This document shows positions 4,409 through 34,590 of a stretch of DNA of 64,000 nucleotides, in pieces. The stretch lies in assembly GCA_038065315.1 (NCBI GenBank), contig JBBTRF010000001.1, forward strand, positions 33,642 to 97,641, given 5' to 3'. Positions within the stretch are counted from its first letter, which is position 1. Each line of letters starts with the position of its first letter. The translations under genes were made by a program, and so were the position numbers. The DNA comes from Patescibacteria group bacterium. Its GTDB lineage: Bacteria; Patescibacteriota; Minisyncoccia; Phycocordibacterales; JBBTRF01. The notes beneath the pieces were generated by a model. It made no database searches. It saw only the letters and a program-made list of their open reading frames with translations, and was not told the DNA's origin.

Positions 4409-6040
4409 GTGGCATTTTTAGGTCAGCACAGTTCTCCACAACCCACGTTTTGGAGACCAACCCTCAACCCCCATACGAAGAATATGCTACTCACAGCTGA
4501 AAGCCTCTCGTCGGCCAAACGGCCGACGCCGGTGGGAAGCATGATTTGCCTCCCGCCACCGCACCAGTTTCTGATGCGTGGTATGCGTGCATTGCCGGAC
4601 GCCTGCAGTTCAGAATGGTTTGCTGAAGTCACTGCCCACGCCCAACTGAAAGGCGACCGTTCACCCGATGTTTTGTTCGGTGGACTCCTCAGTCATTATG
4701 GCCACATCCACGGCCAACATCACCGCGAACCGGCTTGGGTGAGAAAGATTCCGCCAACGGTGGTCCAAGAGATCCGCCGTCGGCACGCCATTAACGGTTC
4801 GGAAGAGACCGTCATCGAGCACTCTGGTGCTGGTGGCGTCCGCTTCTGCGTTCCCCACGGATCTTTGTTCGCCGCATCCGAAGAAGTCTTTGATTTCAGA
4901 CGCCTCGGCGGTATTGCCCAGCTCTCGACTCTGCGTGTCCCGGTCTCGAGCATCCCGTCTCCCAGTGCCCAGGCTCAGCCGATGCGCAAGCGCTTCTCGC
5001 ACACCCGAGTCGCACACTGCCGGCGCGTGGCAGGCTTCATGACGCTCATGGCGTCCAACCTTCTCCATGAGCAGGTTGCTCCGGCGACGGTTTCTGCTGT
5101 CGGCCACGACACTCTGACCGCTGCTGGTGGCGACATGACGCACGCTCTGGATCGTGAAGCATTCGACGAGGATCTGCACTTCGCGAGACTTCTCCAAAGG
5201 CCCGATTTCCAGATATTCCTCAAATGTTGGAATCTTCCCGGCGAGCTCATTGTCTCGACGGTGGCCGGACAGGGTGTGCTTGGCGACATGAACGATGCTG
5301 CCGACAAGCTCGGTTACGTCGGGCTCGATGCCGATCACTACCTAGCTGCGGTGAGAGAAAACTTGCCGCTCTGGTATCCGGATGGCTTCCTGGCTATCGA
5401 GGGGATGATCATTAAACATCCTGAGGTCTGCCGGATTTGGGAGTCTGCCCGGATTCGCGAGGGTCAGTTGGTCTTCGAAGATTCGGCTGGTCTCGCGGCC
5501 TTCCTCCGCCTCCGCATGCTCTTGTTCCGCTGGTTGTATTGCAACCCGATCTGCCTGGCCTGGGAACACGCTCTCGCTGAGTCGTTTCTTCGCCCGATGT
5601 ATGTTTCGGGTTTCGTCACCAGGGAACAACTGTGGTCGCACGACGACCGCTGGCTGTCACTCCAGTTTGATGAATTCCTCGAACGTCGTCCGCGCTTCCG
5701 TCCGGGCCTGCTCGAGGATCTCGAGCCGTTTCCGTTCGGCATCACCTTCGAACAGTATTCGACGCTGGAGGCTGCCCTCATCAGAGCGAGGGCCTTCAAC
5801 GACGATTCGTCCAAGACAGTGGTGGTGGACAAAATGACTCCGGTCACCAAGACCGGTGCGAACCGTTTCCGGGTCGTCGAGGGTGGCAAAGTGAAGAAAT
5901 TCTCCGAAGCCTTCACTCGGCAGACTGCAGAGCTCGAAGCTTTACTCCGTGGGGACCAAGTGGTCTCCGTCGCGATCCTCGACCTGCCAGAGCTTGGCAT
6001 CCCCCCGCGCGTGTGGCCGAAGGTGAAGCTCCGCCATTGA
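4409..6040 (+). CDS. Large hypothetical protein with no recognisable domain (alternative start about 4484)
   Basis: 543-codon open frame in GC-rich DNA with GC3 bias consistent with coding; antisense ORFs look like R/S-rich artefacts; no motif recognised by eye. Confidence 0.5.
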   Translation: MAFLGQHSSPQPTFWRPTLNPHTKNMLLTAESLSSAKRPTPVGSMICLPPPHQFLMRGMRALPDACSSEWFAEVTAHAQLKGDRSPDVLFGGLLSHYGHIHGQHHREPAWVRKIPPTVVQEIRRRHAINGSEETVIEHSGAGGVRFCVPHGSLFAASEEVFDFRRLGGIAQLSTLRVPVSSIPSPSAQAQPMRKRFSHTRVAHCRRVAGFMTLMASNLLHEQVAPATVSAVGHDTLTAAGGDMTHALDREAFDEDLHFARLLQRPDFQIFLKCWNLPGELIVSTVAGQGVLGDMNDAADKLGYVGLDADHYLAAVRENLPLWYPDGFLAIEGMIIKHPEVCRIWESARIREGQLVFEDSAGLAAFLRLRMLLFRWLYCNPICLAWEHALAESFLRPMYVSGFVTREQLWSHDDRWLSLQFDEFLERRPRFRPGLLEDLEPFPFGITFEQYSTLEAALIRARAFNDDSSKTVVVDKMTPVTKTGANRFRVVEGGKVKKFSEAFTRQTAELEALLRGDQVVSVAILDLPELGIPPRVWPKVKLRH

Positions 6041-22111: not shown

Positions 22112-22162
22112 TTGCATTTTTCCTTGCAATTGCCCTCTTCCGAAAATGGTATAATGGGAGGG

Positions 22163-23200
22163 ATGAAAAAGAAACTTGGACAACCAAAGGTGACCCAGAA
22201 GTCTGGTCACGCAGAATTCTTATTGTACACGGCGCCAAATGGCAAGGTGAGCGTGGAGATATTCCTGCACAATGAGACTATCTGGCTAACACAGAAGACG
22301 CTGTCGGAGATTTTTGATTGTTCCGTGGACAATGTTTCACTGCATTTAAAAAATATCTTTGATGACGGAGAACTTTTCCCCGAGGCAGTTATCGAGGAAT
22401 TCTCGATAACTGCCAGTGATGGTAAAAAGTACAAGACGAAACACTACAACCTCGACGCCATCATCGCTGTCGGCTATCGGGTGAACAGTAAAAGAGCGAC
22501 CCATTTTCGTATGTGGGCAACGAGTATACTCAAGGAGTATATGATCAAGGGGTTTGTGATGGATGATCATAGGCTCAAAAATCCAGACGCTACTTTCGGT
22601 GGCGATTATTTCGAAGATCAACTTGCTCGCATTCGAGATATTCGTTCTAGTGAACGTAGGTTCTATCAAAAGATTTCTGATATTTATGCGACTGCTATTG
22701 ATTATGATCCGAACGAAGAATGTACGAGGAAATTTTTCGCTACGGTGCAGAACAAGCTCCATTTTGCCATAAACGGAAAGACGGCCGCAGAGATTGTTCA
22801 TGAAAGGGTAGATAGCACAAAACCGCATCTTGGTTTAACCGCATGGAAACATGGTCCGACTGGTCCGATTCGGAAGATGGACGTGATTGTTGCAAAAAAC
22901 TATCTCGACCATACAGAATTGGATGGGCTCAATCGTATTGTGACAATGTATCTTGATTATGCCGAGTCGCAAGCGAAAAGAGGAGTAGCAATGCACATGA
23001 GAGATTGGGTAGAAAAACTCAACGCCTTTCTGCAGTTCAATGAAAGAGAAATATTGCTTGACAATGGCGTCGTGAGCCACAAGATCGCCGCGGCTTTAGC
23101 TGAAGAAGAATTTGAAAAATATAGGATCGTCCAAGATAGGCTGTATGAAAGCGATTTTGATAAGGAGATGAAGAAGATTTTGGATAAAAAGAAGAAATAG
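22163..23200 (+). CDS. RhuM-family protein (virulence protein RhuM family, PF13310-like)
   Basis: ETIWLTQKTLSEIF...LHLKNIF..GEL....YNLDAIIAVGYRVNS conserved RhuM N-terminal block; AT-rich; TATAAT sits immediately upstream of ATG 22163 (ORF-track start 22097 is probably an over-extension). Confidence 0.7.
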   Translation: MKKKLGQPKVTQKSGHAEFLLYTAPNGKVSVEIFLHNETIWLTQKTLSEIFDCSVDNVSLHLKNIFDDGELFPEAVIEEFSITASDGKKYKTKHYNLDAIIAVGYRVNSKRATHFRMWATSILKEYMIKGFVMDDHRLKNPDATFGGDYFEDQLARIRDIRSSERRFYQKISDIYATAIDYDPNEECTRKFFATVQNKLHFAINGKTAAEIVHERVDSTKPHLGLTAWKHGPTGPIRKMDVIVAKNYLDHTELDGLNRIVTMYLDYAESQAKRGVAMHMRDWVEKLNAFLQFNEREILLDNGVVSHKIAAALAEEEFEKYRIVQDRLYESDFDKEMKKILDKKKK

Positions 23201-23219: not shown

Positions 23220-26200
23220 ATGTCAGAAGAATTATTTCATACAAAATACAAGAACCTGAACCCGGCGCAGAAGAAGGCGGTGGATACGATCGATGGGCCA
23301 GTAATGGTGATTGCGGGGCCGGGTACCGGCAAGACCACTATTTTGACGCTGCGTATCGCGAATATTTTGCGGCTCACAGATACGCCGGCGTCGGGGATTT
23401 TGGCTATTACCTTCACCGACGCCGGCGTGAAGGCGATGCGGCTCAAATTGCGCGAAGTGATCGGCACGCGCGCCGACGAGGTGCGCATCTACACCTTTCA
23501 CGGGTTTGCCGCGGCAGTCATCGCAGAGTTCCAGGAGCATTTCGTACACATCGCCCGCGCGCAGCAGATGACCGATATCGAAGCACAAGAACTCGTGCGC
23601 GGTATTTTGAAAGATAAAAAATACAAGTTGATTCGTCCACTTGGCGAGCCGGACCACTACGTGGGTGGCATTTTGAAGGCGATCAGCGATGCGAAGCGTG
23701 AGGCACTGACACCGGAGATGGTGCGGGATTTTGCGCGAAGTGAAGCGGAGCGAATCGCGGCTGACCCCGACTCGCTTTCGACTCGTGGTGCAACCAAGGG
23801 CCAACTCAAAGCCGATGCTCGAAAGCAGATCGAGAAGGCGGAAAAAACCCTATTGCTCGCCGATGTGTACGAAGCGTACGAGGCGAAAAAGCGGGCTGCC
23901 GGAAATAGTGGTGCGGCAGCGGCGCGAAAGATCGACTTCGATGACCTCATCTTTGAGTTGCTCCAGGCGATCCGCACCGACGAACTGCTCCGATCGCTGA
24001 TCCAGGAAAAATACTTGTATCTGTTGGTGGACGAGCATCAAGACACCAACGACTCGCAGAACGCGATCATCCGCGCCATTGCCGACTTTTTCGATTCGCC
24101 GAATCTCTTTGTGGTGGGCGATGAGAAGCAGGCGATCTATCGTTTCCAGGGCGCGTCGGTGCAAAATTTCCTGCAATTTCAAAATGCGTGGAAAAACATG
24201 CAGGTGATTTCGCTCGAGGAAAACTATCGTTCACACCAGCATATTTTGGACGCGAGCTTTTCCCTCATCGAAAACAACTATGCCGACGGGGAGCATCCGT
24301 TGCTGCGAGTGAAGTTGCGCGCCGGCGGTGAAGAAGCTGCGCGGCCGATCGAAGTAGTGACGGCAGGGAATTCGACGGCGGCCGACATGGCACTGGTGGA
24401 GAGGCTCAAGGAATTTGTCGCGATAAGCGCGAAAGACTGTGACGAAAAAACCGCAGCCATCATCGTGCGACGCAATCGTGATGTGGAGCGGTTGGCGACA
24501 TTGTGCGAAGCGCATGGTGTGCATGCGGCATCGGAGCGCGGGATCAATATTTTCTTGCACCCGATCGGTGCGCTCTTTTTTGATCTGATTCATTTTTTGC
24601 ATGACCCGTCGCAGACGGAGGCCTTGGCCGTGACTCTGGCTTCAGGCTTGTGGGGCATGGAATTTGCACGTGCATCTGAGATGATTCGCTTGGTGAAAAG
24701 CGGCAAGACGGCCGAAGTGCTTAGTGCGCTACCGCTCGTGGCGACCGTGCGGGAAGAAATGACCCAACGTGGCGGACTGGCGTTTTTGGTGTACGCGACA
24801 GGACAAAGCGGTCTGCTGCCGGTGATAGCAAAGAGTCCGGCCAATACAGAAGTGTGGCGGGGAATTGTTGCTTTGGCGACTGAGCTGGCAGCTCGCGATC
24901 GTGCCTATGCCGATGACCCACGCAGGCTCATCGAGGCGTTGCTTTCATATCGCGCCACTGCGGAGACGCGCAGCGTGAAGATCCTTTCCGGCACGCCCGA
25001 TGCGCCGGTGCGCATCATGACCGCGCATGGTTCGAAGGGTTTGGAATATGATGAAGTATTTTTGCCGTATGCGGTGAATGAATCGTGGCTCACGCGTCTG
25101 CGCTCGGCGTCTTTCTTACTGCCAGGCCAAGTGAAAAACGAGGGCGACGAACTCCGCGATGCCCGCCGCCTTTTCTATGTGGCACTCACGCGCGCTCGCA
25201 AGCGTGTCACTATTATTACGCCGCTCGAAGATGGCTCCGGCAAGGCTTTCACGCCATTGGGTTTTGTAGAGGAGTTGGTGGATGGGCCAGAAAGCACAAA
25301 CGTTTCTCGCACTGAGATCCCTGCGATTTCGGACGACGCTTTTGTGCTCGCAAAAACTCGCGGCAAAGAACGACGCAATGAAGAGCTTGCCGCATACGCA
25401 AAGACGATTTTGTTCGAAAAGGGTTTATCAGTGACCGCCCTCAACCACTTTTTGGAGTGTCCTCAGCAATTTTTGTACAAGAGCATCATCAAGGTGCCGG
25501 AGCCACCGTCGGCAAAGTCTGAAGGGGGGAGTGCGATGCATTTGGCGATGGATCGCGTGTGGCATTTGGTGCGGGCGAAAAATCGAGAAGAGGGCGATGG
25601 CGCGAGTGCCGTGTCCGGAGGAGTTTCGACCAAAAAAATCGAGGCTGAAATTCTCTTGGCGACCGGCGAGTATTTGGACCAGTCGCTCTTGCCGTCATTT
25701 GAAAAAGAGGCGATTCGTGAGGAGTTGAAAGAAACCGCGCCGGAAGTGGCGGTCGCACTGGCGCCACATTTTGCCTTGCGTGGCGAAGTGTTCACTGAGA
25801 CGTGGTTTGAGGCGCAAGAGGCAGGTATCCGACTGCACGGAAAAATGGATGCTGTCATCGATATGAGTGGTTCTGCTGAGGGCGATGTCGTGCGCGTCTT
25901 CGACTACAAAACGAGCCAAGCGAAAAGTGAGGCGGCGATTAAGGGCGAGACGAAATCCGACAGTAGCGGCAACTATTTCCGCCAACTTGTCTTCTATTAC
26001 ATTCTCTTGTCGGCCCAGAGCAAGTACCATGGCAAACGGATCGAGCCAGCACTCGTGTTTATCAAACCCGACGATAAGGGTCGATGTCAGACGGTGACTT
26101 TGCCAATTGGTGTGGGCGATGTCGCGCGAGTGAAAGGAGAAATTGCGAAGCTTGTGGAATCGGTTCAATCCGGCGCTCTCGTGAATGCTCGATGTGAAAG

Positions 26201-26243
26201 TGAGGACTGCGAGTGGTGCCGATTGGCGAGGATGGTTAGATAA
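23220..26243 (+). CDS. UvrD/PcrA-like SF1 helicase fused to C-terminal PD-(D/E)xK Cas4/AddB-like Fe-S nuclease
   Basis: Walker A AGPGTGKTT, DEHQDTN, helicase motifs; C-terminal VFDYKTS (D-YK) and Cys cluster C..CESEDCEWC. Confidence 0.8.
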   Translation: MSEELFHTKYKNLNPAQKKAVDTIDGPVMVIAGPGTGKTTILTLRIANILRLTDTPASGILAITFTDAGVKAMRLKLREVIGTRADEVRIYTFHGFAAAVIAEFQEHFVHIARAQQMTDIEAQELVRGILKDKKYKLIRPLGEPDHYVGGILKAISDAKREALTPEMVRDFARSEAERIAADPDSLSTRGATKGQLKADARKQIEKAEKTLLLADVYEAYEAKKRAAGNSGAAAARKIDFDDLIFELLQAIRTDELLRSLIQEKYLYLLVDEHQDTNDSQNAIIRAIADFFDSPNLFVVGDEKQAIYRFQGASVQNFLQFQNAWKNMQVISLEENYRSHQHILDASFSLIENNYADGEHPLLRVKLRAGGEEAARPIEVVTAGNSTAADMALVERLKEFVAISAKDCDEKTAAIIVRRNRDVERLATLCEAHGVHAASERGINIFLHPIGALFFDLIHFLHDPSQTEALAVTLASGLWGMEFARASEMIRLVKSGKTAEVLSALPLVATVREEMTQRGGLAFLVYATGQSGLLPVIAKSPANTEVWRGIVALATELAARDRAYADDPRRLIEALLSYRATAETRSVKILSGTPDAPVRIMTAHGSKGLEYDEVFLPYAVNESWLTRLRSASFLLPGQVKNEGDELRDARRLFYVALTRARKRVTIITPLEDGSGKAFTPLGFVEELVDGPESTNVSRTEIPAISDDAFVLAKTRGKERRNEELAAYAKTILFEKGLSVTALNHFLECPQQFLYKSIIKVPEPPSAKSEGGSAMHLAMDRVWHLVRAKNREEGDGASAVSGGVSTKKIEAEILLATGEYLDQSLLPSFEKEAIREELKETAPEVAVALAPHFALRGEVFTETWFEAQEAGIRLHGKMDAVIDMSGSAEGDVVRVFDYKTSQAKSEAAIKGETKSDSSGNYFRQLVFYYILLSAQSKYHGKRIEPALVFIKPDDKGRCQTVTLPIGVGDVARVKGEIAKLVESVQSGALVNARCESEDCEWCRLARMVR

Positions 26244-27101: not shown

Positions 27102-27845
27102 ATGATACTTATTTTCATTGCAATCGGCGCTTTCGCCGCGACGTTTCTTGGCGGCTTGTTTGCCCTGCGCTTTCGGGACACGCTGCATTTGGTGCTCGGC
27201 TTCAGCGCGGGCGCGGTGATTGGTGTGGCTTTCTTCGATCTTCTGCCGGAGGCGCTGGAACTGGCAGCACCTTTTTCCGCATCGACCGTCACCACTGCAG
27301 TTGCCATAGGCTTCGTGCTGTATATGCTCCTCGACCGATTGATCGTGCCACATGTGCATGTTGAAGATGATCATTGTGCCAATGAAGAGCACGCGCCGGC
27401 AGCGAAAGTCGCCCGCGGCTGGCTGGGGGCAGGGAGTTTGTCTTTCCACAGCTTTCTTGACGGCATCGCGATCGGCCTCGCTTTCCAAGTGTCCGCAGCC
27501 GCGGGCTTGGTGGTCGCCATCGCCGTTCTCGTCCACGATTTCTCCGATGGTATCAACACTGTAGGTCTTATTTTGAAAAACGGCGGTACCAAAGCGCAAG
27601 CGTTCAAATGGTTGGCGCTCGACGCGTCCGCGCCGGTGCTCGGTATTATTGCTGCGAGCTTTTTCACCCTCGAAAGCTCGACACTCGGCCTCGTTCTCGC
27701 GCTCTTCTGCGGCTTCTTTTTGTATATCGGCGCCAGCGACCTTCTACCGGAAAGTCACCATGCACATCCGACCAAGTGGACAACCTTCATGAGCGTCCTC
27801 GGTATTGCTGTGTTGTATGGAGCCGTGACTCTTGCAGGGATCTAG
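27102..27845 (+). CDS. ZIP-family metal (zinc) transporter
   Basis: Multi-TM protein with HSFLDGIAIG and HDFSDGINTVG ZIP signatures. Confidence 0.8.
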   Translation: MILIFIAIGAFAATFLGGLFALRFRDTLHLVLGFSAGAVIGVAFFDLLPEALELAAPFSASTVTTAVAIGFVLYMLLDRLIVPHVHVEDDHCANEEHAPAAKVARGWLGAGSLSFHSFLDGIAIGLAFQVSAAAGLVVAIAVLVHDFSDGINTVGLILKNGGTKAQAFKWLALDASAPVLGIIAASFFTLESSTLGLVLALFCGFFLYIGASDLLPESHHAHPTKWTTFMSVLGIAVLYGAVTLAGI

Positions 27846-28417
27846 AACGGCAACGTATGGGTCATACCACTCGCTTCGAGCGAGTTCCATTTTGAGGTGT
27901 CGATTTTGATGCCTTTCACCTCTTTGCCCTCGAGATATTTTACGCCACCGTTTTTGAGCATGTATTCGTAGAGCTCCTTGGTGATCTTCACGTCTTCGAG
28001 ACAGTATTTGATCACCTTGTCCTTCTCCCCCTTGCGCCACCATTCTATAGCCTCGAGACCGTGGCCGATCTTCTTTTTGCCGAGCGATGCTTCCGCCAAT
28101 GTGTCGAGCTTGATGCGGCGGCCGAGCGCGATCTTAACCTCGGCCATGAGGTCGAGGCTTTTTATTTTTCCGAGATCGCCGGAATAATATTTGTTGAGCA
28201 GGGGAATGTCGAAATGGTCGGAATTGAAGCCGATGAGCATGTCGGCTTTTTCGATGACCGGCCAGAGTTTTTTCAAATCCTCTTCGAGATATGCGGTGTA
28301 GGTATCAGTCTCGGAATCGTACACGCCGACGACGGAAATGTGGAGCGCGGTGGGGTCATTGCTGCCGACTTCCAGGAACGTATCTTTCGTTTCAATATCA
28401 AAAATAATTTTGCGCAT
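27842..28417 (-). CDS. DEDD-type 3'-5' exonuclease (RNase H-like fold, YprB/PolB-exo-like)
   Basis: FDIET, FNSDHFDIPLL and YCLEDV motifs in DEDD exonuclease order. Confidence 0.6.
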   Translation of the reverse strand: MRKIIFDIETKDTFLEVGSNDPTALHISVVGVYDSETDTYTAYLEEDLKKLWPVIEKADMLIGFNSDHFDIPLLNKYYSGDLGKIKSLDLMAEVKIALGRRIKLDTLAEASLGKKKIGHGLEAIEWWRKGEKDKVIKYCLEDVKITKELYEYMLKNGGVKYLEGKEVKGIKIDTSKWNSLEASGMTHTLPF

Positions 28418-28564
28418 GAGGGTAATTCTAACAGGGGAGTGAGGCGAGCGATAGAATTGACATAAGGCATCATATCGTGATATGATACTTTTTGATGAAA
28501 TCGTTCTTTGACGATTGTCCTTGCTGCATTCGGTGGTTCAACAATTTCAAGCGGAAAATTCATT

Positions 28565-29179
28565 ATGACGACTGAGTTCACGACGGAGGTAATGACCCCT
28601 GATCAAGAGAAGCTACTGGTCGATGTTTTGTTGGGCATCCACGGTGGCCGCGAATTGGAAACTTTCTTTTTTGGAGATGCCGCAAAGGTGGGCAGTAGTG
28701 AACCAAAAAAACTTCCACTGCTAGAGGCCTTCTTTGAAATGTTACAGGCGCAAGAAACCAGATTTGGTTGGAATGCGTCATCGCCTGTGCCTCTTGCGAG
28801 TCGTATCCTGTTCCATTCTGTCGCCAAACACTTTGACCGCATGCGGGATAAGAAGCGGTTGAGACTCTACGTTGCTACGGGCATTAGTCTCGATTGGCAT
28901 CATCACATGGACGCAGTGTTTGCTTGCGGGCGTCGTTTCGTGGGGTTAGACATCACCACTGAGTGGCGAGTAGACAAGCTCGATCTGAAGGATGCAATAA
29001 TCGCTCGGTGCCAATTGCCGATCGTATTGATCCCGAGAAATGAGATTGCCGTTGTCGGAGGCTTCAACGCATTTAGCGAAAGGATCGCTGAAAGGATGAA
29101 GCACGAACTCTCGTTGTCGCCACCATCACCGCCCCAGAAGTGCTGGTATACGGCAAGAAGCTTGGCTGGGGCTTCCTAG
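28565..29179 (+). CDS. Hypothetical protein, paralog 1 of a tandem pair (unknown family)
   Basis: Shares ordered motifs with the downstream paralog: FFGD, RFGW/RFDW, LYVA.G...D..HH.D.AF, VG.DLT. Confidence 0.55.
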   Translation: MTTEFTTEVMTPDQEKLLVDVLLGIHGGRELETFFFGDAAKVGSSEPKKLPLLEAFFEMLQAQETRFGWNASSPVPLASRILFHSVAKHFDRMRDKKRLRLYVATGISLDWHHHMDAVFACGRRFVGLDITTEWRVDKLDLKDAIIARCQLPIVLIPRNEIAVVGGFNAFSERIAERMKHELSLSPPSPPQKCWYTARSLAGAS

Positions 29180-29210
29180 GAACCCAATCTTTCACCATGT
29201 ACCCCCCCCT

Positions 29211-29245
29211 GCAGCCGGACCTAGCGTCCGGCTGCTTTTCATTTT
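29211..29245 (+). terminator. Rho-independent terminator between the tandem paralogs
   Basis: gcagccggac-ctagc-gtccggctgc 10-bp stem followed by ttttcatttt. Confidence 0.6.
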
Positions 29246-29317
29246 GGCGCCTTGCTTTTCGGACATAAGAGAGTACGCTTATTCCCAGCGGTAAACCAAC
29301 AAACGAAAGGGCATCAA

Positions 29318-29932
29318 ATGGCGTGTCTGGATAGTTGTTTGACAAAAGAGGTCGTGGCTGAAATGGCAAGGATTCGGAGCGGGAGGAAATTCGAACAATT
29401 CCTCCTTGGAGACAAGGCGGTTGATTTGGGCGGTCCAATCCCGGACATTCCTTTTGAGCCGGCATGGCAAGAGGTGCTACGTGTGCAAGTGTCGCGCTTT
29501 GATTGGGATACCAAAAAACCGAAGACACTTGCTGGACAGGCGCTGTTTCAGGCGGTGGCTGCGGAGCTGCCAAACGAGGCTTGGCGCAACGCGTTGGAGC
29601 TGTATGTCGCCGTCGGCCTCGCTTTTGATCGCCGACATCACGCGGACTGTGCCTTCTTGGTGAATGGCATGAAACGTGTCGGTGTTGATCTCACCGTCGA
29701 GGAGTATCCATACAAACTCGCTAAAAAACGGCGCGCTGCGGAATCTTCGCCGATCCCAATGGTGATCCTCACTCGGGCGAAGATCACCAGAGAGACGGGT
29801 TTTGCCGAATACGGCAGGGAAATCGCCGCAAAGCTTCTCCACGGAACTTTCGCACATGAGCGCCTGCTTCGGCAGATTCGCGATCATGATTTCGAAACGG
29901 TTCGCCGATCCATGGCACGCCGCCGGCGGTGA
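29318..29932 (+). CDS. Hypothetical protein, paralog 2 of the tandem pair
   Basis: Collinear similarity to 28565-29179 (LELYVAVGLAFDRRHHADCAFLVNGMKRVGVDLTVEEY vs LRLYVATGISLDWHHHMDAVFACGRRFVGLDITTEW). Confidence 0.55.
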   Translation: MACLDSCLTKEVVAEMARIRSGRKFEQFLLGDKAVDLGGPIPDIPFEPAWQEVLRVQVSRFDWDTKKPKTLAGQALFQAVAAELPNEAWRNALELYVAVGLAFDRRHHADCAFLVNGMKRVGVDLTVEEYPYKLAKKRRAAESSPIPMVILTRAKITRETGFAEYGREIAAKLLHGTFAHERLLRQIRDHDFETVRRSMARRRR

Positions 29933-30367
29933 GCTCAGCCCGTTTCGGTGCATAGGTGCAACAGCACCTTCAATTCAAGACTGGTCTCGCAAGGGGCTGG
30001 TTTTTTGTTGCCTCAAATTGCAAAACAAGATAGAAAAGAAAAAAGCGCGCCTCCGGTGAAGGTGGCGCGCTGTTTGGATACCCGGGGATATCCGACGGGT
30101 TTTCTCTCCCGTTCGCTGCCTGTTTTTTGGAACAGACAGCTTAGCCGGTGCTGTTGGTGTACTAGCTCCAGACGCTTTCATCTACTAGCGGGAACGCTTT
30201 CGATGAGCTCTTCTGGACGTTCATAAGTCCTTTCTGTCATCCCGAAAGTGGGGTGACGGGGGATTGCTTTGTTGGGAAGAACTGCACTGACCTGTATACT
30301 ATAGCACCTATTACATAAAATGTCAATACCCTCAGCGGGTACTGACAAAATACGTTGAAAAACAAGG

Positions 30368-31868: not shown

Positions 31869-32696
31869 GTGAAAGGTACACCCTTGTCGGATGCAAATGA
31901 TGTCGCGCTCACAGTGCGCGCCATCGCTCTCGGTATGAAATTGGCACTCAATCTGCCGAAAGTGTTCACGCTCAGAGAGCTTGAGCATTACGAAGCCAAT
32001 CTTGATGAGCTTCCCGGGATTCTCCGGAACGGCTCTCGCTTTACCGCGACAGCCACCCAAGAAGGTGCGACTCAGACAGAACCTCCCCCGCGTCCCTCCT
32101 TCGCCTTTGCTGACACGAACGCCCTCAAGGCGATCGAGGAAGCCGAGGACTTTGCCGAGAAACACTTCGGCCATCGCCCCGACTTGCGCAAGCAGTTCAC
32201 GATGCCGAAGGTTTTGCCCTGGAAAATTGTGATCGCGGTCTATGATCCCGGCACTTTGACCCATCGCCAAGCAGTGGAGCAGGCCCTCAAGGCCCAGCCC
32301 AAGCTTAAGAGTGTGTATGAGGAGCGGGACCTGATGGACTACAAGGACGCGAAAGCTTCCGGCAAGCCCACTCTTCGCTTCGTTGAACGCTCGACGCAGC
32401 CGACACCGGACACGATGAATCTCACCGCAGACGAGATGGTGGCCACAGGGCGCGTCTTCCTCGATCTGCGCGGTTACATCATCGCCTTCGGCATGTATCA
32501 CAAGGTGACCGGCCACTTCCTCGACCCGAAGACGTGGACCCGGTTCCCAACATCGAGGCTCCCCGACGGCGGGGTGGCGAGTGGCTACTGGTTTCCGGGC
32601 TACTCGAAGGTCCGCTTCGACTGGGACTACGCCGGCTATCGCGGCTCCGACATCGGTGGTCGCGAGGCAGTCAATTGTGCCCTTGCAACTCCTTGA
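31869..32696 (+). CDS. DGR target (variable) protein; the C-terminal ~38 aa are encoded by the variable region
   Basis: GTG start with upstream AAAAAGGA; the C-terminal coding 116 nt matches the template repeat downstream except at TR adenines. Confidence 0.8.
   Translation: MKGTPLSDANDVALTVRAIALGMKLALNLPKVFTLRELEHYEANLDELPGILRNGSRFTATATQEGATQTEPPPRPSFAFADTNALKAIEEAEDFAEKHFGHRPDLRKQFTMPKVLPWKIVIAVYDPGTLTHRQAVEQALKAQPKLKSVYEERDLMDYKDAKASGKPTLRFVERSTQPTPDTMNLTADEMVATGRVFLDLRGYIIAFGMYHKVTGHFLDPKTWTRFPTSRLPDGGVASGYWFPGYSKVRFDWDYAGYRGSDIGGREAVNCALATP
32557..32672 (+). repeat. DGR variable region (VR)
   Basis: 116-nt match to 32982-33097; all 19 mismatches are at positions where the TR has A. Confidence 0.9.
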
Positions 32697-32981
32697 GCCC
32701 CTTGTTTCCTTCGACTTCTCCTCTTCACCCCTCGGCTTGCTATGGCAGGTCGGGGGTTTTTCTATGCGACAATGTGACAAAAGCAGCTCGTTTACGCTAT
32801 ACTTTTTGCAGGCTGTTAAATTGGTCCGATATTTTCAATCTGTGAAAAATGTCTGACAACAATTTGCCTAACAATAGAAACTGCTTGCTCACGTTTATAT
32901 TACGCATGCTCTGCCGCACGCATTCTCAACTCAGGAGTTTTTGCAAAAGGACTCCGGTGATACGGACGAATGTGGGCAATA

Positions 32982-33097
32982 AGGCTCCCCGACGGCAAGG
33001 TGGCGAATGGCAACTGGAATCCGGACAACTCGAAGGTCAACTTCAACTGGAACAACGCCGACAATCGCAACTCCAACATCGGTGGTCGCGAGGAAGT
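32982..33097 (+). repeat. DGR template repeat (TR)
   Basis: AAC-codon-rich (encodes NGNWNPDNSKVNFNWNNADNRNSN); 97/116 identity to VR, differing only at TR adenines. Confidence 0.9.
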
Positions 33098-33100
33098 TTC

Positions 33101-33484
33101 TCACAACAAAGAGCCACTAGGCTCTTTTTGTGTCTGGCTCGGCAGTGCGCCTGTTTGGATCGCATATGTCAGCCAGCCGTTGGTCATTTTCGAAATCTCG
33201 ATGAGTTGCTCGTAGAATCGAAAATACGTTTTCTCGGGGATGATTTGCAGTTCATGTTCAGTTCGGACAAGGTGTTTCAATATCTCGACTTGCAATCGCA
33301 GCTCCTCCAGCGCGCTTTGTTTTTCTTGCCGCGGCCGGAAAGCCGCTTCTACAGCGAGCGCAAGGCAGGCGAGAGACTGCTTTTCTATCTGTGCATGGAT
33401 ACCGAGTTTGTCTCGCTTCGATAATTTTTCTGCGCTACAATACAAGTCCTTATGCAACAGGCGAATAGCACGGATGATGGGCAA
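33101..33484 (-). CDS. avd: Avd-like accessory variability determinant (four-helix-bundle protein), probable TTG start
   Basis: LSKRDKLGIHAQIEKQSLACLALAVEAAFR and EISKMTNGWL align with the TIGR02436/Avd consensus (kyglTsQirRAavSIpsNIAEG ... mLngLi); the ORF-track start 33628 would overlap the RT N-terminus. Confidence 0.55.
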   Translation of the reverse strand: MPIIRAIRLLHKDLYCSAEKLSKRDKLGIHAQIEKQSLACLALAVEAAFRPRQEKQSALEELRLQVEILKHLVRTEHELQIIPEKTYFRFYEQLIEISKMTNGWLTYAIQTGALPSQTQKEPSGSLL

Positions 33485-33552
33485 AGTGGTATCACTGGGA
33501 GCGGTTTTGGTAGTAGCGGGGGGGGGGTATTCATGGTTTTGATTTTCGTGAT

Positions 33553-34590
33553 GTAATATTTGACGACATCGTATCGCTAAGAAGTCTTTTTTCGGCTTGG
33601 CGCCGGTTTTCAAAAGGGAAGCGGTCAAAGAAGGATGTTACCCTATTTGAGCTCCATTTGGAAGACAATCTCTTTTCTCTGCATCGTCGGCTGGTCTCGG
33701 GAGAGTGGCGTCCTGACCCGTATCAGGCTTTTTTGGTGCAGGATCCGAAGCTCCGACGAATCCATAAGGCGAGCGTCGGCGACAGGGTGCTGTATCAAGC
33801 TGTGTATCAGACGCTGTATCCGCTGTTCGACAAGCATTTTATCCATGATTCATACGCCTCTCGCGATCTGAAAGGTACGCATCGGGGTGTCGAGCGGTTT
33901 GGGGTGTTTGCGAAAAAAGTAAGTGCCAATCATTGCCATGCAGCTTTTGTGTTGAAGTGTGACGTGCGGAAATTTTTCGACTCCATTGATCACGACATTT
34001 TGTTGGAACTGCTGGGGCGGAAGCTTGGCGGCCGCGCGTCGGGCACTCCACACCTGCTCAGACTTCTCGAAAAGATCATCCGCTCTTTTGAGGCTTCACC
34101 TGGCAAAGGGCTGCCGCTCGGAAATGTCACGAGCCAGATTTTTGCGAATATCTACCTCAACAAACTCGATCAATTTGTGAAGCATTTCCTGCGCGCGCAA
34201 TACTATATACGATACTGCGACGATTTTGTATTGCTATCGTCGTCGCGCGAGGAGCTCGAGGGTTGGACTCGGGAAATCGGCCAATTTTTGCAGGAGCATC
34301 TGAAACTTTCATTGCATCCGAACAAGGTCACGATACGCAAGCTGCTCCAGGGAACGGATTTTCTCGGGTATGTGAGCTTGCCGCGCTATCGCGTGTTGCG
34401 GACGAAAACCAGAAACAGGATGTTCAAAAAGATCGTTGGACTCGCGGCTGAGGTGAAGAGTGGAAAGATTTCTGAGGATCGTTTTTGCAATTCACTCGCT
34501 TCCTATCTCGGCATGTTGAGACATTGCAAAAGTAAGAAGGTGTTGGCGGAACTCGGCACGCTACTTGGTACCGCTGACCAACCCCGATGA
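33553..34590 (+). CDS. DGR-type reverse transcriptase (probable GTG start upstream of ORF-track start 33658)
   Basis: LPLGNVTSQIFANIYLNKLD (DGR-specific SQ motif), YCDDFVL (YxDD); an upstream in-frame AWRRFSKGKRSKKDV matches the usual DGR RT N-terminus. Confidence 0.85.
   Translation, partial: VIFDDIVSLRSLFSAWRRFSKGKRSKKDVTLFELHLEDNLFSLHRRLVSGEWRPDPYQAFLVQDPKLRRIHKASVGDRVLYQAVYQTLYPLFDKHFIHDSYASRDLKGTHRGVERFGVFAKKVSANHCHAAFVLKCDVRKFFDSIDHDILLELLGRKLGGRASGTPHLLRLLEKIIRSFEASPGKGLPLGNVTSQIFANIYLNKLDQFVKHFLRAQYYIRYCDDFVLLSSSREELEGWTREIGQFLQEHLKLSLHPNKVTIRKLLQGTDFLGYVSLPRYRVLRTKTRNRMFKKIVGLAAEVKSGKISEDRFCNSLASYLGMLRHCKSKKVLAELGTLLGTADQPR

What the first reader, a model, noticed from the sequence alone, without database searches (positions are those of the whole stretch)
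28565..29932. Tandem pair of divergent paralogs of an unrecognised protein family with a conserved HH-x-D-x-x-F core, next to a DEDD exonuclease
The two ~205-aa ORFs are collinear in motifs (F.FGD; RF.W; LYVA.G...D..HH.D.AF.....VG.DLT..E; I.L.R..I) but only about 30% identical. They are separated by their own terminator, so they are separately transcribed. I cannot assign the family. The invariant His-His-Asp cluster looks like a metal or catalytic site. A 3'-5' exonuclease is encoded convergently immediately upstream, and a 435-bp ORF-free region follows.
Basis: seen in the sequence. Interest (0 to 1): 0.55.

Follow-up and report, generated by a model that had tools for sequence, protein, structure and literature searches.

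The report
Duplicated orphan nuclease-like gene in Patescibacteria
Two neighbouring genes are old duplicates of a small protein family found so far only in the tiny-celled Patescibacteria; no database describes the family, and it most likely folds like a restriction-enzyme-type (PD-(D/E)XK) metal-dependent nuclease, which is a useful annotation but not a new kind of biology.

Summary
Window 28565-29179 (A) and 29318-29932 (B) encode two 204-aa paralogs (34% identity, E 9e-26). A strong terminator separates them, and both are under purifying selection.

They match nothing in Pfam, NCBIfam, PHROGs, PADLOC or PDB sequences. An exhaustive profile search found 129 distant relatives. They are small, basic, usually single-copy proteins. 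Every named source organism is a Patescibacterium, and gene neighbourhoods vary.

Across 127 members the invariant residues are D110, D116 and D129. G28xxxE32, Q63, a W-N/D-P-x-x-P-x-T motif and K142 are also conserved.

AlphaFold with the deep alignment gives pLDDT 94 and an alpha-beta-beta-beta-alpha-beta core. D116 sits at the start of strand 2 and D129-x-T/K131 in strand 3. Foldseek gives no significant hit, but its weak-hit lists are dominated by PD-(D/E)XK nucleases.

Best reading: a new, lineage-restricted PD-(D/E)XK-type nuclease family, duplicated in this lineage. The substrate is unknown. The DEDD exonuclease is a real neighbour, but it is divergent rather than convergent, and the linkage is not conserved. 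Moderate interest.

The parts
28457..28486 (+). Promoter-like site upstream of paralog A (TTGACA-18-TATGAT, TG-extended)
   Evidence: Consensus scan, 11 of 12 matches. The equivalent site is present in L001 at 5151-5180. This is a consensus match only; no transcription data were available.
28565..29179 (+). Paralog A, 204 aa from ATG 28565. The likely true start is ATG 28592 (195 aa), which has GGAGG 5 nt upstream. NCBI name: hypothetical protein AAB391_00225.
   Evidence: AlphaFold model m4b1498f24988 has pLDDT 94.1. dN/dS against the L001 ortholog is 0.13. It carries G28/E32/Q63/D110/H113/D116/D129/K142.
29211..29245 (+). Intrinsic terminator of A (GCAGCCGGAC-loop-GTCCGGCTGC followed by TTTTCATTTT)
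   Evidence: The same stem with a different loop occurs in L001 at 5878-5903.
29318..29932 (+). Paralog B, 204 aa (NCBI calls it from M16 as 189 aa, AAB391_00230)
   Evidence: It is 34% identical to A. Orthologs are 65-74% identical. dN/dS is 0.11-0.17. In the A/B alignment it keeps the counterparts of G28, E32, Q63, D110, H113, H114, D116 and D129.
29981..30006 (+). Terminator-like hairpin of B (CTGGTCTC-GCAA-GGGGCTGG followed by T6)
   Evidence: Read directly; the scan did not list it. L001 has CCGACCTC-GTGA-GGGGTCGG followed by T7 at the aligned position, with changes on both sides of the stem.
27842..28417 (-). Neighbouring DEDD-type 3'-5' exonuclease (191 aa), divergently transcribed. This is context, not part of the system.
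   Evidence: PF13482 E 4e-11, plus PF10108 and PF01612. It is 99% identical in L001. It is absent next to the single-copy homolog in L008.

Best explanation
A and B are lineage-specific tandem duplicates of a Patescibacteria-restricted family that has not been described. The family most likely adopts the PD-(D/E)XK (restriction-endonuclease-like) fold and acts as a divalent-metal-dependent nuclease on DNA or RNA.

Inferred mechanism:
- E32 (first conserved helix, GxxΦE motif), D116 (start of strand 2) and D129 (strand 3) bind Mg2+ and activate water to cleave the phosphodiester bond.
- The usual lysine of the (D/E)xK half-motif is Thr or Ser in most members. It is supplied instead by K142 in the following helix. 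A minority keep the orthodox D-x-K.
- D110 and H113, in the loop between strands 1 and 2, together with Q63, complete or tune the site.
- The helical N-terminal module with W-N/D-P-x-x-P-x-T, and the basic C-terminal tail, bind the substrate.

The gene is a stable, usually single-copy, monocistronic core-genome gene, so a housekeeping role in repair, recombination or RNA processing is more likely than defence. In this lineage both copies keep all the conserved residues and may work as a heterodimer.

Shown here: paralogy, family membership, the conservation pattern, predicted secondary structure and topology, and purifying selection. Inferred: the 3D arrangement of the active site, nuclease activity, the substrate and the oligomeric state.
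For: - **Family size.** 129 representatives (50%-identity clusters) at E<1e-3.
- **Conservation.** D110 127/127, D116 127/127, D129 126/127, E32 118, G28 120, Q63 115, K142 99 Lys + 8 Arg.
- **Structure.** The AlphaFold model has pLDDT 94.1 and pTM 0.89. Its element order is helices, b1 99-103, b2 117-121, b3 124-131, helix 136-149, b4 153-157, helix 166-183. That is the alpha-beta-beta-beta-alpha-beta core, with acidic residues at the canonical positions defined in PMC1189080.
- **Orthodox variants.** 11 members have the orthodox D-x-K at 129-131. They lack K142 more often than the rest (6/11 against 22/116, Fisher p=0.014). Lysine migration has a precedent in the superfamily (PMC1189080).
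- **Weak structural hits.** The top 50 Foldseek hits in PDB are mostly PD-(D/E)XK nucleases: Hjc, Can2, Bax1, N.BspD6I, cap-snatching endonucleases, the R2 endonuclease, FAN1, I-Bth0305I and the ngo0050 putative endonuclease-like protein. The viral library gives VRR-NUC, DUF559, Holliday-junction resolvases and PD-(D/E)XK proteins. The highest-probability hits are Bax1 chains (prob 0.47-0.77, rmsd 1.2-1.6 Å over 41-43 columns). Bax1's nuclease domain superimposes on VRR-NUC and has an E-D-E triad (PMC7293015).
- **Charge.** Median pI of the family is 9.0.
- **Real, constrained genes.** dN/dS is 0.07-0.17.
- **Vertical inheritance.** The syntenic slot is kept in L001, L003 and L008. There is no match in phages, plasmids or viral contigs.
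Against: - No structural match is individually significant. The best Foldseek E is 0.42 in PDB and 0.21 in the viral library, with TM-scores of 0.2-0.5.
- I could not inspect model coordinates, so the clustering of E32, D110, D116, D129 and K142 in space is not verified.
- No profile link to any PD-(D/E)XK family was found. hhalign against the RecB-like domain of the neighbouring helicase gave probability 0.07.
- About 65 residues of helices lie between the E32 helix and strand 1, which is unusual for the minimal fold.
- Most members lack the orthodox lysine.
- No conserved gene neighbour points to a substrate.
Confidence: 0.6

Rival explanations
1. The family is a metal-dependent hydrolase or binding protein of another kind, for example a phosphatase, or an enzyme acting on nucleotides or 5' ends. 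It would use the Asp/His cluster (D110, H113, D116, D129) on a scaffold that only loosely resembles the endonuclease fold. It would not be an endonuclease.
For: No structural hit is significant, and there is no sequence link to nucleases. The large conserved helical module with W-N/D-P-x-x-P-x-T and Q63 has no counterpart in minimal PD-(D/E)XK nucleases. Some neighbours are nucleotide-metabolism genes: NUDIX and HD in L004, a CTP_transf_like gene in L007.
Against: H113 is Tyr, Phe or Trp in 34 of 127 members, so it is not an obligatory metal ligand. The acidic residues sit exactly at the canonical strand-2 and strand-3 positions. The weak-hit lists are almost all nucleases. The neighbourhoods are not conserved.
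Confidence: 0.2
2. The pair is a conflict or defence module, or a selfish element: a restriction-like or toxin nuclease together with a diverged partner. Its fast evolution would reflect an arms race.
For: A (62% identity) and B (74%) are among the most diverged of 10 neighbouring genes compared between the window and L001. The exonuclease is 99% identical and HisRS 95%. The locus is plastic in L003, with an extra 188-aa ORF between A and B and roughly 6 kb inserted after B. A diversity-generating retroelement lies 2 kb away.
Against: There is no PADLOC or PHROGs hit. No methyltransferase, antitoxin or other fixed partner is present, and relatives are single-copy in varied housekeeping contexts. 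The same syntenic slot is kept across relatives. The family is absent from phage, plasmid and viral collections. dN/dS is about 0.1, with no sign of positive selection. Zip (67%) and TruB (74%) are just as diverged.
Confidence: 0.1
3. The family is a catalytically inactive structural or regulatory nucleic-acid-binding protein that retains a PD-(D/E)XK-like scaffold.
For: Most members have lost the orthodox lysine of the (D/E)xK motif. The proteins are basic.
Against: Three aspartates are invariant or nearly so in 127 highly diverged sequences with mean column identity of 12%. This is hard to explain without catalysis or metal binding. K142 is conserved as a likely replacement lysine.
Confidence: 0.1

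Closest known systems
PD-(D/E)XK (restriction-endonuclease-like) nuclease superfamily, minimal members such as archaeal Hjc, VRR-NUC and the Bax1 nuclease domain
   Same: Predicted alpha-beta-beta-beta-alpha-beta core. A Glu in an N-terminal helix, an invariant Asp at the start of strand 2, and an invariant Asp in strand 3 thirteen residues later. These proteins dominate the weak Foldseek hits. The E-D-E/D triad matches the one described for Bax1 and VRR-NUC (PMC7293015).
   Different: No significant sequence or structure score. About 65 residues of conserved helices (Q63, W-N/D-P-x-x-P-x-T) are inserted between the Glu helix and strand 1. There is an extra invariant Asp (D110) and a semi-conserved His/aromatic (H113). 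The lysine of (D/E)xK is Thr or Ser in about 80% of members.
PD-(D/E)XK families with a migrated lysine (Tt1808 / COG4636), as described by Feder and Bujnicki 2005 (PMC1189080)
   Same: The half-motif in strand 3 lacks Lys, and a conserved Lys sits elsewhere in the chain. Here it is K142 in the next helix. A minority of members keep D-x-K and tend to lack K142.
   Different: No detectable homology. The spatial equivalence of K142 to the canonical lysine is not verified.
DXO/Rai1 decapping exonucleases (motif GΦXΦE). Recalled from memory, not tested here.
   Same: The spacing G28-x-x-Φ-E32 in a helix, followed by acidic motifs on strands.
   Different: DXO/Rai1 proteins are much larger eukaryotic proteins. 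No hit appeared in any search. This resemblance is a lead only.

Membership tests
PD-(D/E)XK nuclease superfamily | Common core: a four-stranded mixed beta-sheet flanked by helices, with order alpha-beta-beta-beta-alpha-beta (PMC1189080) | tested here: met
   AlphaFold model with pLDDT 94.1. After the helices come b1 99-103, b2 117-121, b3 124-131, helix 136-149, b4 153-157 and helix 166-183. This rests on the order of secondary-structure elements only; sheet geometry was not inspected.
PD-(D/E)XK nuclease superfamily | Significant 3D similarity to solved members | tested here: inconclusive
PD-(D/E)XK nuclease superfamily | Acidic residue ((P)D) at the N-terminus of strand 2 | tested here: met
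   D116 is present in 127/127 members and lies immediately before strand 117-121.
PD-(D/E)XK nuclease superfamily | (D/E)-x-K half-motif in strand 3 | tested here: inconclusive
   D129 is present in 126/127 members. Position 131 is Thr in 82, Ser in 21, Lys in 11 and Ala in 10. K142 in the next helix is Lys in 99 and Arg in 8. Members with K131 lack K142 more often than the rest (p=0.014). These data are consistent with lysine migration, but the geometry was not checked.
PD-(D/E)XK nuclease superfamily | Conserved Glu in the N-terminal helix that contributes to the metal site | tested here: inconclusive
   E32 is present in 118/127 members, in helix 28-36. Three further helices separate it from strand 1, and its proximity to D116 and D129 could not be checked.
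PD-(D/E)XK nuclease superfamily | Metal-dependent nuclease activity | not testable with these tools
   This needs biochemistry.
Any curated PD-(D/E)XK family (Pfam Hjc, VRR_NUC, PDDEXK_1-12, RecU, UPF0102 and others) | Profile match above the family threshold | tested here: not met
   No such family was hit by A, B or any of the 127 members, even at E<=10. Profile searches of PDB sequences gave nothing or chance nucleoporin hits. hhalign against a RecB-like domain gave probability 0.07.
   H113 is His in 90/127 members and Tyr, Phe or Trp in 34 of the other 37. H114 is Gly in 92/127. HH occurs in only 7 members. There is no HD-domain or other hydrolase Pfam hit.
DEDD 3'-5' exonuclease (the neighbouring gene 27842-28417) | Profile match, plus the Exo I/II/III acidic motifs | tested here: met
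   PF13482 E 4e-11 (cut-off 22 bits, score 43.6), with PF10108 and PF01612 also above their cut-offs. The motifs FDIET, NSDHFD and YCLED are visible in the translation.

The most novel reading that the evidence does not exclude
The family is a Patescibacteria-specific core nuclease that fills a housekeeping role for which these reduced genomes lack the usual enzyme. Candidate roles are resolving branched recombination intermediates or processing the intervening sequences common in their rRNA genes. A new helical substrate-recognition module (W-N/D-P-x-x-P-x-T) would be grafted onto a PD-(D/E)XK core. In this lineage the family would have become an obligate A/B heterodimer.
Probability: 0.12. 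Interest if true: 0.6.

Novelty: new member of a known kind. Interest (0 to 1): 0.38.

Why it matters
Patescibacteria make up a large share of bacterial diversity. They have tiny genomes, and many of their conserved genes have no known function. This work turns two "hypothetical proteins" into a defined family with:

- about 130 sequence clusters;
- a confident structural model;
- a specific, testable active-site proposal (E32, D116, D129, K142).

If the family proves to be a core nuclease, it would fill a gap in how these organisms repair DNA or process RNA. The practical gain today is an annotation and a candidate Pfam-type family, not a new mechanism.

Tried and rejected
- **Family libraries.** Pfam, NCBIfam, PHROGs and PADLOC scans of A and B gave nothing. 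Scanning all 127 members against Pfam at E<=0.01 and E<=10 gave only scattered chance hits.
- **PDB sequence searches.** Searches with A, with the 127-member profile, and with the 11-member D-x-K sub-profile gave nothing, or chance nucleoporin hits at E 1.3.
- **Word-indexed homolog search.** It found only the query itself for A and close orthologs for B. With the profile it was capped by the candidate limit.
- **Profile-profile comparison.** hhalign against the RecB-like nuclease domain of the adjacent UvrD-type helicase gave probability 0.07. A visual resemblance (HGKMDAV / FDYKT against HHMDAVF / LDITT) is therefore not supported.
- **Gene neighbourhoods.** About 12 independent loci share no conserved partner, so guilt by association fails. 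This includes the DEDD exonuclease.
- **Mobile-element collections.** No member turned up in phages, plasmids or viral contigs.
- **Names.** Cluster names from the sources are all "hypothetical protein". One JGI label, "methionine aminopeptidase" (P0139), was not followed up.
- **Literature.** No paper on this family was found.
- **C-terminal (K/R)(K/R)hLGL tails.** About 10 long members carry them, and they resemble the Pol IV clamp-binding peptide QLVLGL, which I recalled from memory. Only the LGL half matches and neither A nor B has it, so it stays a lead.
- **Rfam.** A scan of the ORF-free region gave nothing above noise.

Full report
**1. The observation**

The window carries two same-strand ORFs of 204 codons each: A at 28565-29179 and B at 29318-29932.

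- BLASTP of A against B gives 34% identity over 167 residues, E 9e-26. The paralogy is real.
- A 10-bp hairpin with 8 GC pairs, followed by a T-run, sits 32 nt after A's stop at 29211-29235. The same stem with a different loop is present in a related genome (L001 5878-5903).
- B is followed by its own hairpin and T6 at 29981-30006 (read). The L001 equivalent has changes on both sides of the stem.
- A promoter-like site (TTGACA-18-TATGAT) lies at 28457-28486 and recurs in L001.
- A probably starts at ATG 28592. It has GGAGG 5 nt upstream, and this is the position where most relatives start.
- The neighbour at 27842-28417 on the minus strand is a DEDD-type exonuclease (PF13482, E 4e-11).

**2. 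Real genes, and where they come from**

- The exact proteins are annotated as hypothetical proteins AAB391_00225 and AAB391_00230 of a "Patescibacteria group bacterium" MAG, on contigs up to 781 kb. They also occur on Hainich groundwater contigs.
- Related genomes keep the order UvrD/PDDEXK helicase, DsbA, Zip, exonuclease, A, B, HisRS (L001 and L003).
- dN/dS against orthologs is 0.07-0.13 for A and 0.11-0.17 for B. Both are therefore constrained coding genes.
- They are among the faster-evolving genes of the neighbourhood. Between the window and L001, A is 62% and B 74% identical. The exonuclease is 99%, HisRS 95%, DsbA 93% and the helicase 92%. Zip (67%), the DGR target (72%) and TruB (74%) are similarly diverged, so I do not read this as an arms-race signal.

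**3. The family**

- Pfam, NCBIfam, PHROGs, PADLOC and PDB sequences give nothing for A or B.
- An exhaustive HMMER search of 1.84 billion representatives with the A/B profile found 129 proteins at E<1e-3. Apart from the two orthologs, the best E is 4e-17.
- Members have a median length of 166 aa and a median pI of 9.0.
- None of 127 aligned members hits a Pfam family convincingly, even at E<=10. A profile search of PDB sequences is also empty. Source names are all "hypothetical protein".
- The named organisms are Patescibacteria: a Saccharibacteria MAG, a Taylorbacteria MAG and the window's own genome.
- No member was found in viral contigs, phages or plasmids.
- An HMM scan of every fetched locus shows one copy per locus, except in the window's own lineage, which has two.
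- A more distant relative has a single copy (P0011) in the same slot between Zip/BacA and HisRS, with no exonuclease.
- A and B are each other's best non-orthologous match.
- Together these points indicate an old, lineage-specific tandem duplication of a vertically inherited gene.
- Neighbourhoods elsewhere differ from locus to locus. They include SecA/HD/NUDIX, enolase, YqeY, a SurA-like gene, an Exo_endo_phos gene, SpoU methylase, MurJ, RNR and ABC transporters. No partner gene points to a function.

**4. Conservation pattern (numbering of A)**

| Residue or motif | Count among 127 members |
|---|---|
| G28 / E32 (GxxΦE motif) | 120 / 118 |
| G37 | 107 |
| Q63 | 115 |
| W69-(N/D)-P71-x-x-P74-x-T76 | motif conserved; P74 in 122 |
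| L99 | 120 |
| G106 | 114 |
| D110 | 127 |
| H113 | His 90; Tyr, Phe or Trp in 34 of the other 37 |
| H114 | Gly 92, His 8 |
| D116 | 127 |
| F119 | 119 |
| D129 | 126 |
| Position 131 | Thr 82, Ser 21, Lys 11, Ala 10 |
| K142 | Lys 99, Arg 8 |

The family signature is three aspartates plus a Glu, a Gln and a Lys.

**5. Structure**

- With only A and B as input, AlphaFold gave pLDDT 70.
- With the 127-member alignment it gave pLDDT 94.1 and pTM 0.89.
- The element order is helices 12-23, 28-36, 38-41, 52-65, 77-87 and 93-98; strand 99-103; short helix 108-113; strands 117-121 and 124-131; helix 136-149; strand 153-157; short helix 158-161; helices 166-183 and 189-201.
- From residue 99 onward, preceded by helices, this is the alpha-beta-beta-beta-alpha-beta core of the PD-(D/E)XK superfamily.
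- The invariant D116 lies at the start of strand 2. D129-x-(T/K)131 lies in strand 3, thirteen residues later. These are the canonical (P)D...(D/E)xK positions (definition in PMC1189080).
- Eleven members carry the orthodox D-x-K. They lack K142 more often than the others (6/11 against 22/116, Fisher p=0.014). This is what a migrated catalytic lysine would produce, and that variant is documented in the superfamily.

**6. Fold searches**

- Foldseek against PDB and against viral models returns no significant hit. The best E-values are 0.42 and 0.21, and TM-scores are 0.2-0.5.
- The weak-hit lists are nevertheless dominated by PD-(D/E)XK nucleases:
  - PDB list: Hjc from several archaea, Can2, Bax1, N.BspD6I/R.BspD6I, arenavirus/bunyavirus/influenza cap-snatching endonucleases, the R2 retrotransposon protein (9dou), FAN1, I-Bth0305I, and 3hrl (deposited as a putative endonuclease-like protein).
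  - Viral list: VRR-NUC, DUF559, DUF1064, Holliday-junction resolvases and "PD-(D/E)XK" proteins.
- The highest-probability hits (0.47-0.77, rmsd 1.2-1.6 Å over 41-43 columns) are Bax1 chains. Their nuclease domain superimposes on VRR-NUC and has an E-D-E triad (PMC7293015).

**7. Interpretation**

The best-supported reading (confidence about 0.6) is a new, Patescibacteria-restricted family of the PD-(D/E)XK fold.

- It most likely acts as a Mg2+-dependent nuclease. E32, D116 and D129 would be the metal ligands and K142 the relocated lysine.
- D110, H113 and Q63 would be accessory residues.
- A family-specific helical module and a basic tail would bind the substrate.
- Stable synteny, single-copy status and absence from mobile-element collections favour a housekeeping role over defence. 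The substrate is unknown.
- Both A and B keep every conserved residue, so both are presumably active. A heterodimer is possible but untested.

Rivals are a different metal-dependent hydrolase on a look-alike scaffold (0.2), a conflict or defence nuclease (0.1) and an inactive binding protein (0.1).

**8. Comparison with known families, and novelty**

The family works like a minimal PD-(D/E)XK nuclease of the Hjc, VRR-NUC or Bax1 type. It cannot be filed in any curated family, because every profile test failed. Its distinguishing features are the roughly 65-residue conserved helical insertion, the extra invariant Asp, and Thr or Ser in place of the motif lysine. I rate it a new member of a known kind. 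The interest is moderate: a clean family definition and a testable active site in a poorly understood phylum, but new PD-(D/E)XK families are found regularly.

**9. Side observations**

- **Diversity-generating retroelement.** It lies 2 kb downstream. The target gene is 31869-32696, with the variable repeat at 32556-32671 and the template repeat at 32982-33097. All 19 mismatches fall at template adenines. The reverse transcriptase is at 33658-34590.
- **Candidate small RNA.** The "ORF-free" 435 bp contains, on the minus strand, a conserved promoter (30326..30298) and a hairpin terminator (~30062-30036). Together they bracket a ~260-nt structured, conserved RNA candidate. Its folding z-score is -4.9, 6 pairs show changes on both sides against L001, and there is no Rfam match.

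Noticed in passing
window 31869-34590: A diversity-generating retroelement. The target gene is 31869-32696 (275 aa), with the variable repeat 32556-32671 at its 3' end. The template repeat is 32982-33097 (84% identical), and all 19 mismatches fall at template adenines. A possible accessory ORF lies at 33101-33628 (-). The reverse transcriptase is 33658-34590 (310 aa, YCDDF). L001 has an RVT_1 gene in the same place.
   Followed up: yes
window 30030-30326, minus strand: A candidate structured small RNA of about 260 nt in the 'ORF-free' region. It has a TG-extended promoter, TTGACA-17-TATAGT (30326..30298), which is conserved in L001. It ends in a GC-rich hairpin with a T-run (~30062-30036). MFE is -92 kcal/mol with z = -4.9. 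Six pairs show double-sided changes against L001. A 116-nt stretch is 85% identical in L003, displaced about 6 kb from B. There is no Rfam match.
   Followed up: partly
L003 5248-5814 and 6604-12480: In the relative GCA_964602975.1 an unrelated 188-aa ORF sits between the A and B orthologs. About 6 kb is inserted between B and the small-RNA candidate, replacing HisRS at that position. The insert includes a 610-aa ResIII/DEAD/Helicase_C_2 helicase and unannotated ORFs. The locus is therefore a site of gene gain.
   Followed up: no
family members P0019, P0020, P0022, P0024, P0028, P0033, P0060 and others (not in the window): About 10 of the longer family members end in a C-terminal amphipathic tail, (K/R)(K/R)hLGL, for example NLKKVLGL. 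It partly resembles the Pol IV clamp-binding peptide QLVLGL, which I recalled from memory. Several of these members also carry the orthodox D-x-K motif. A and B lack the tail.
   Followed up: partly
window 28565-28592: The annotated start of A (ATG 28565) is probably 27 nt too early. ATG 28592 has a GGAGG Shine-Dalgarno 5 nt upstream and coincides with the start of most relatives.
   Followed up: yes
window 23220-26243: A 1007-aa UvrD-type helicase fused to a C-terminal PDDEXK_1 (RecB-like) nuclease domain, ending in a conserved Cys cluster (C...CxxC). The gene just upstream on the same contigs hits Virulence_RhuM; from L022 1203-2249 that places it at about window 22154-23200.
   Followed up: no
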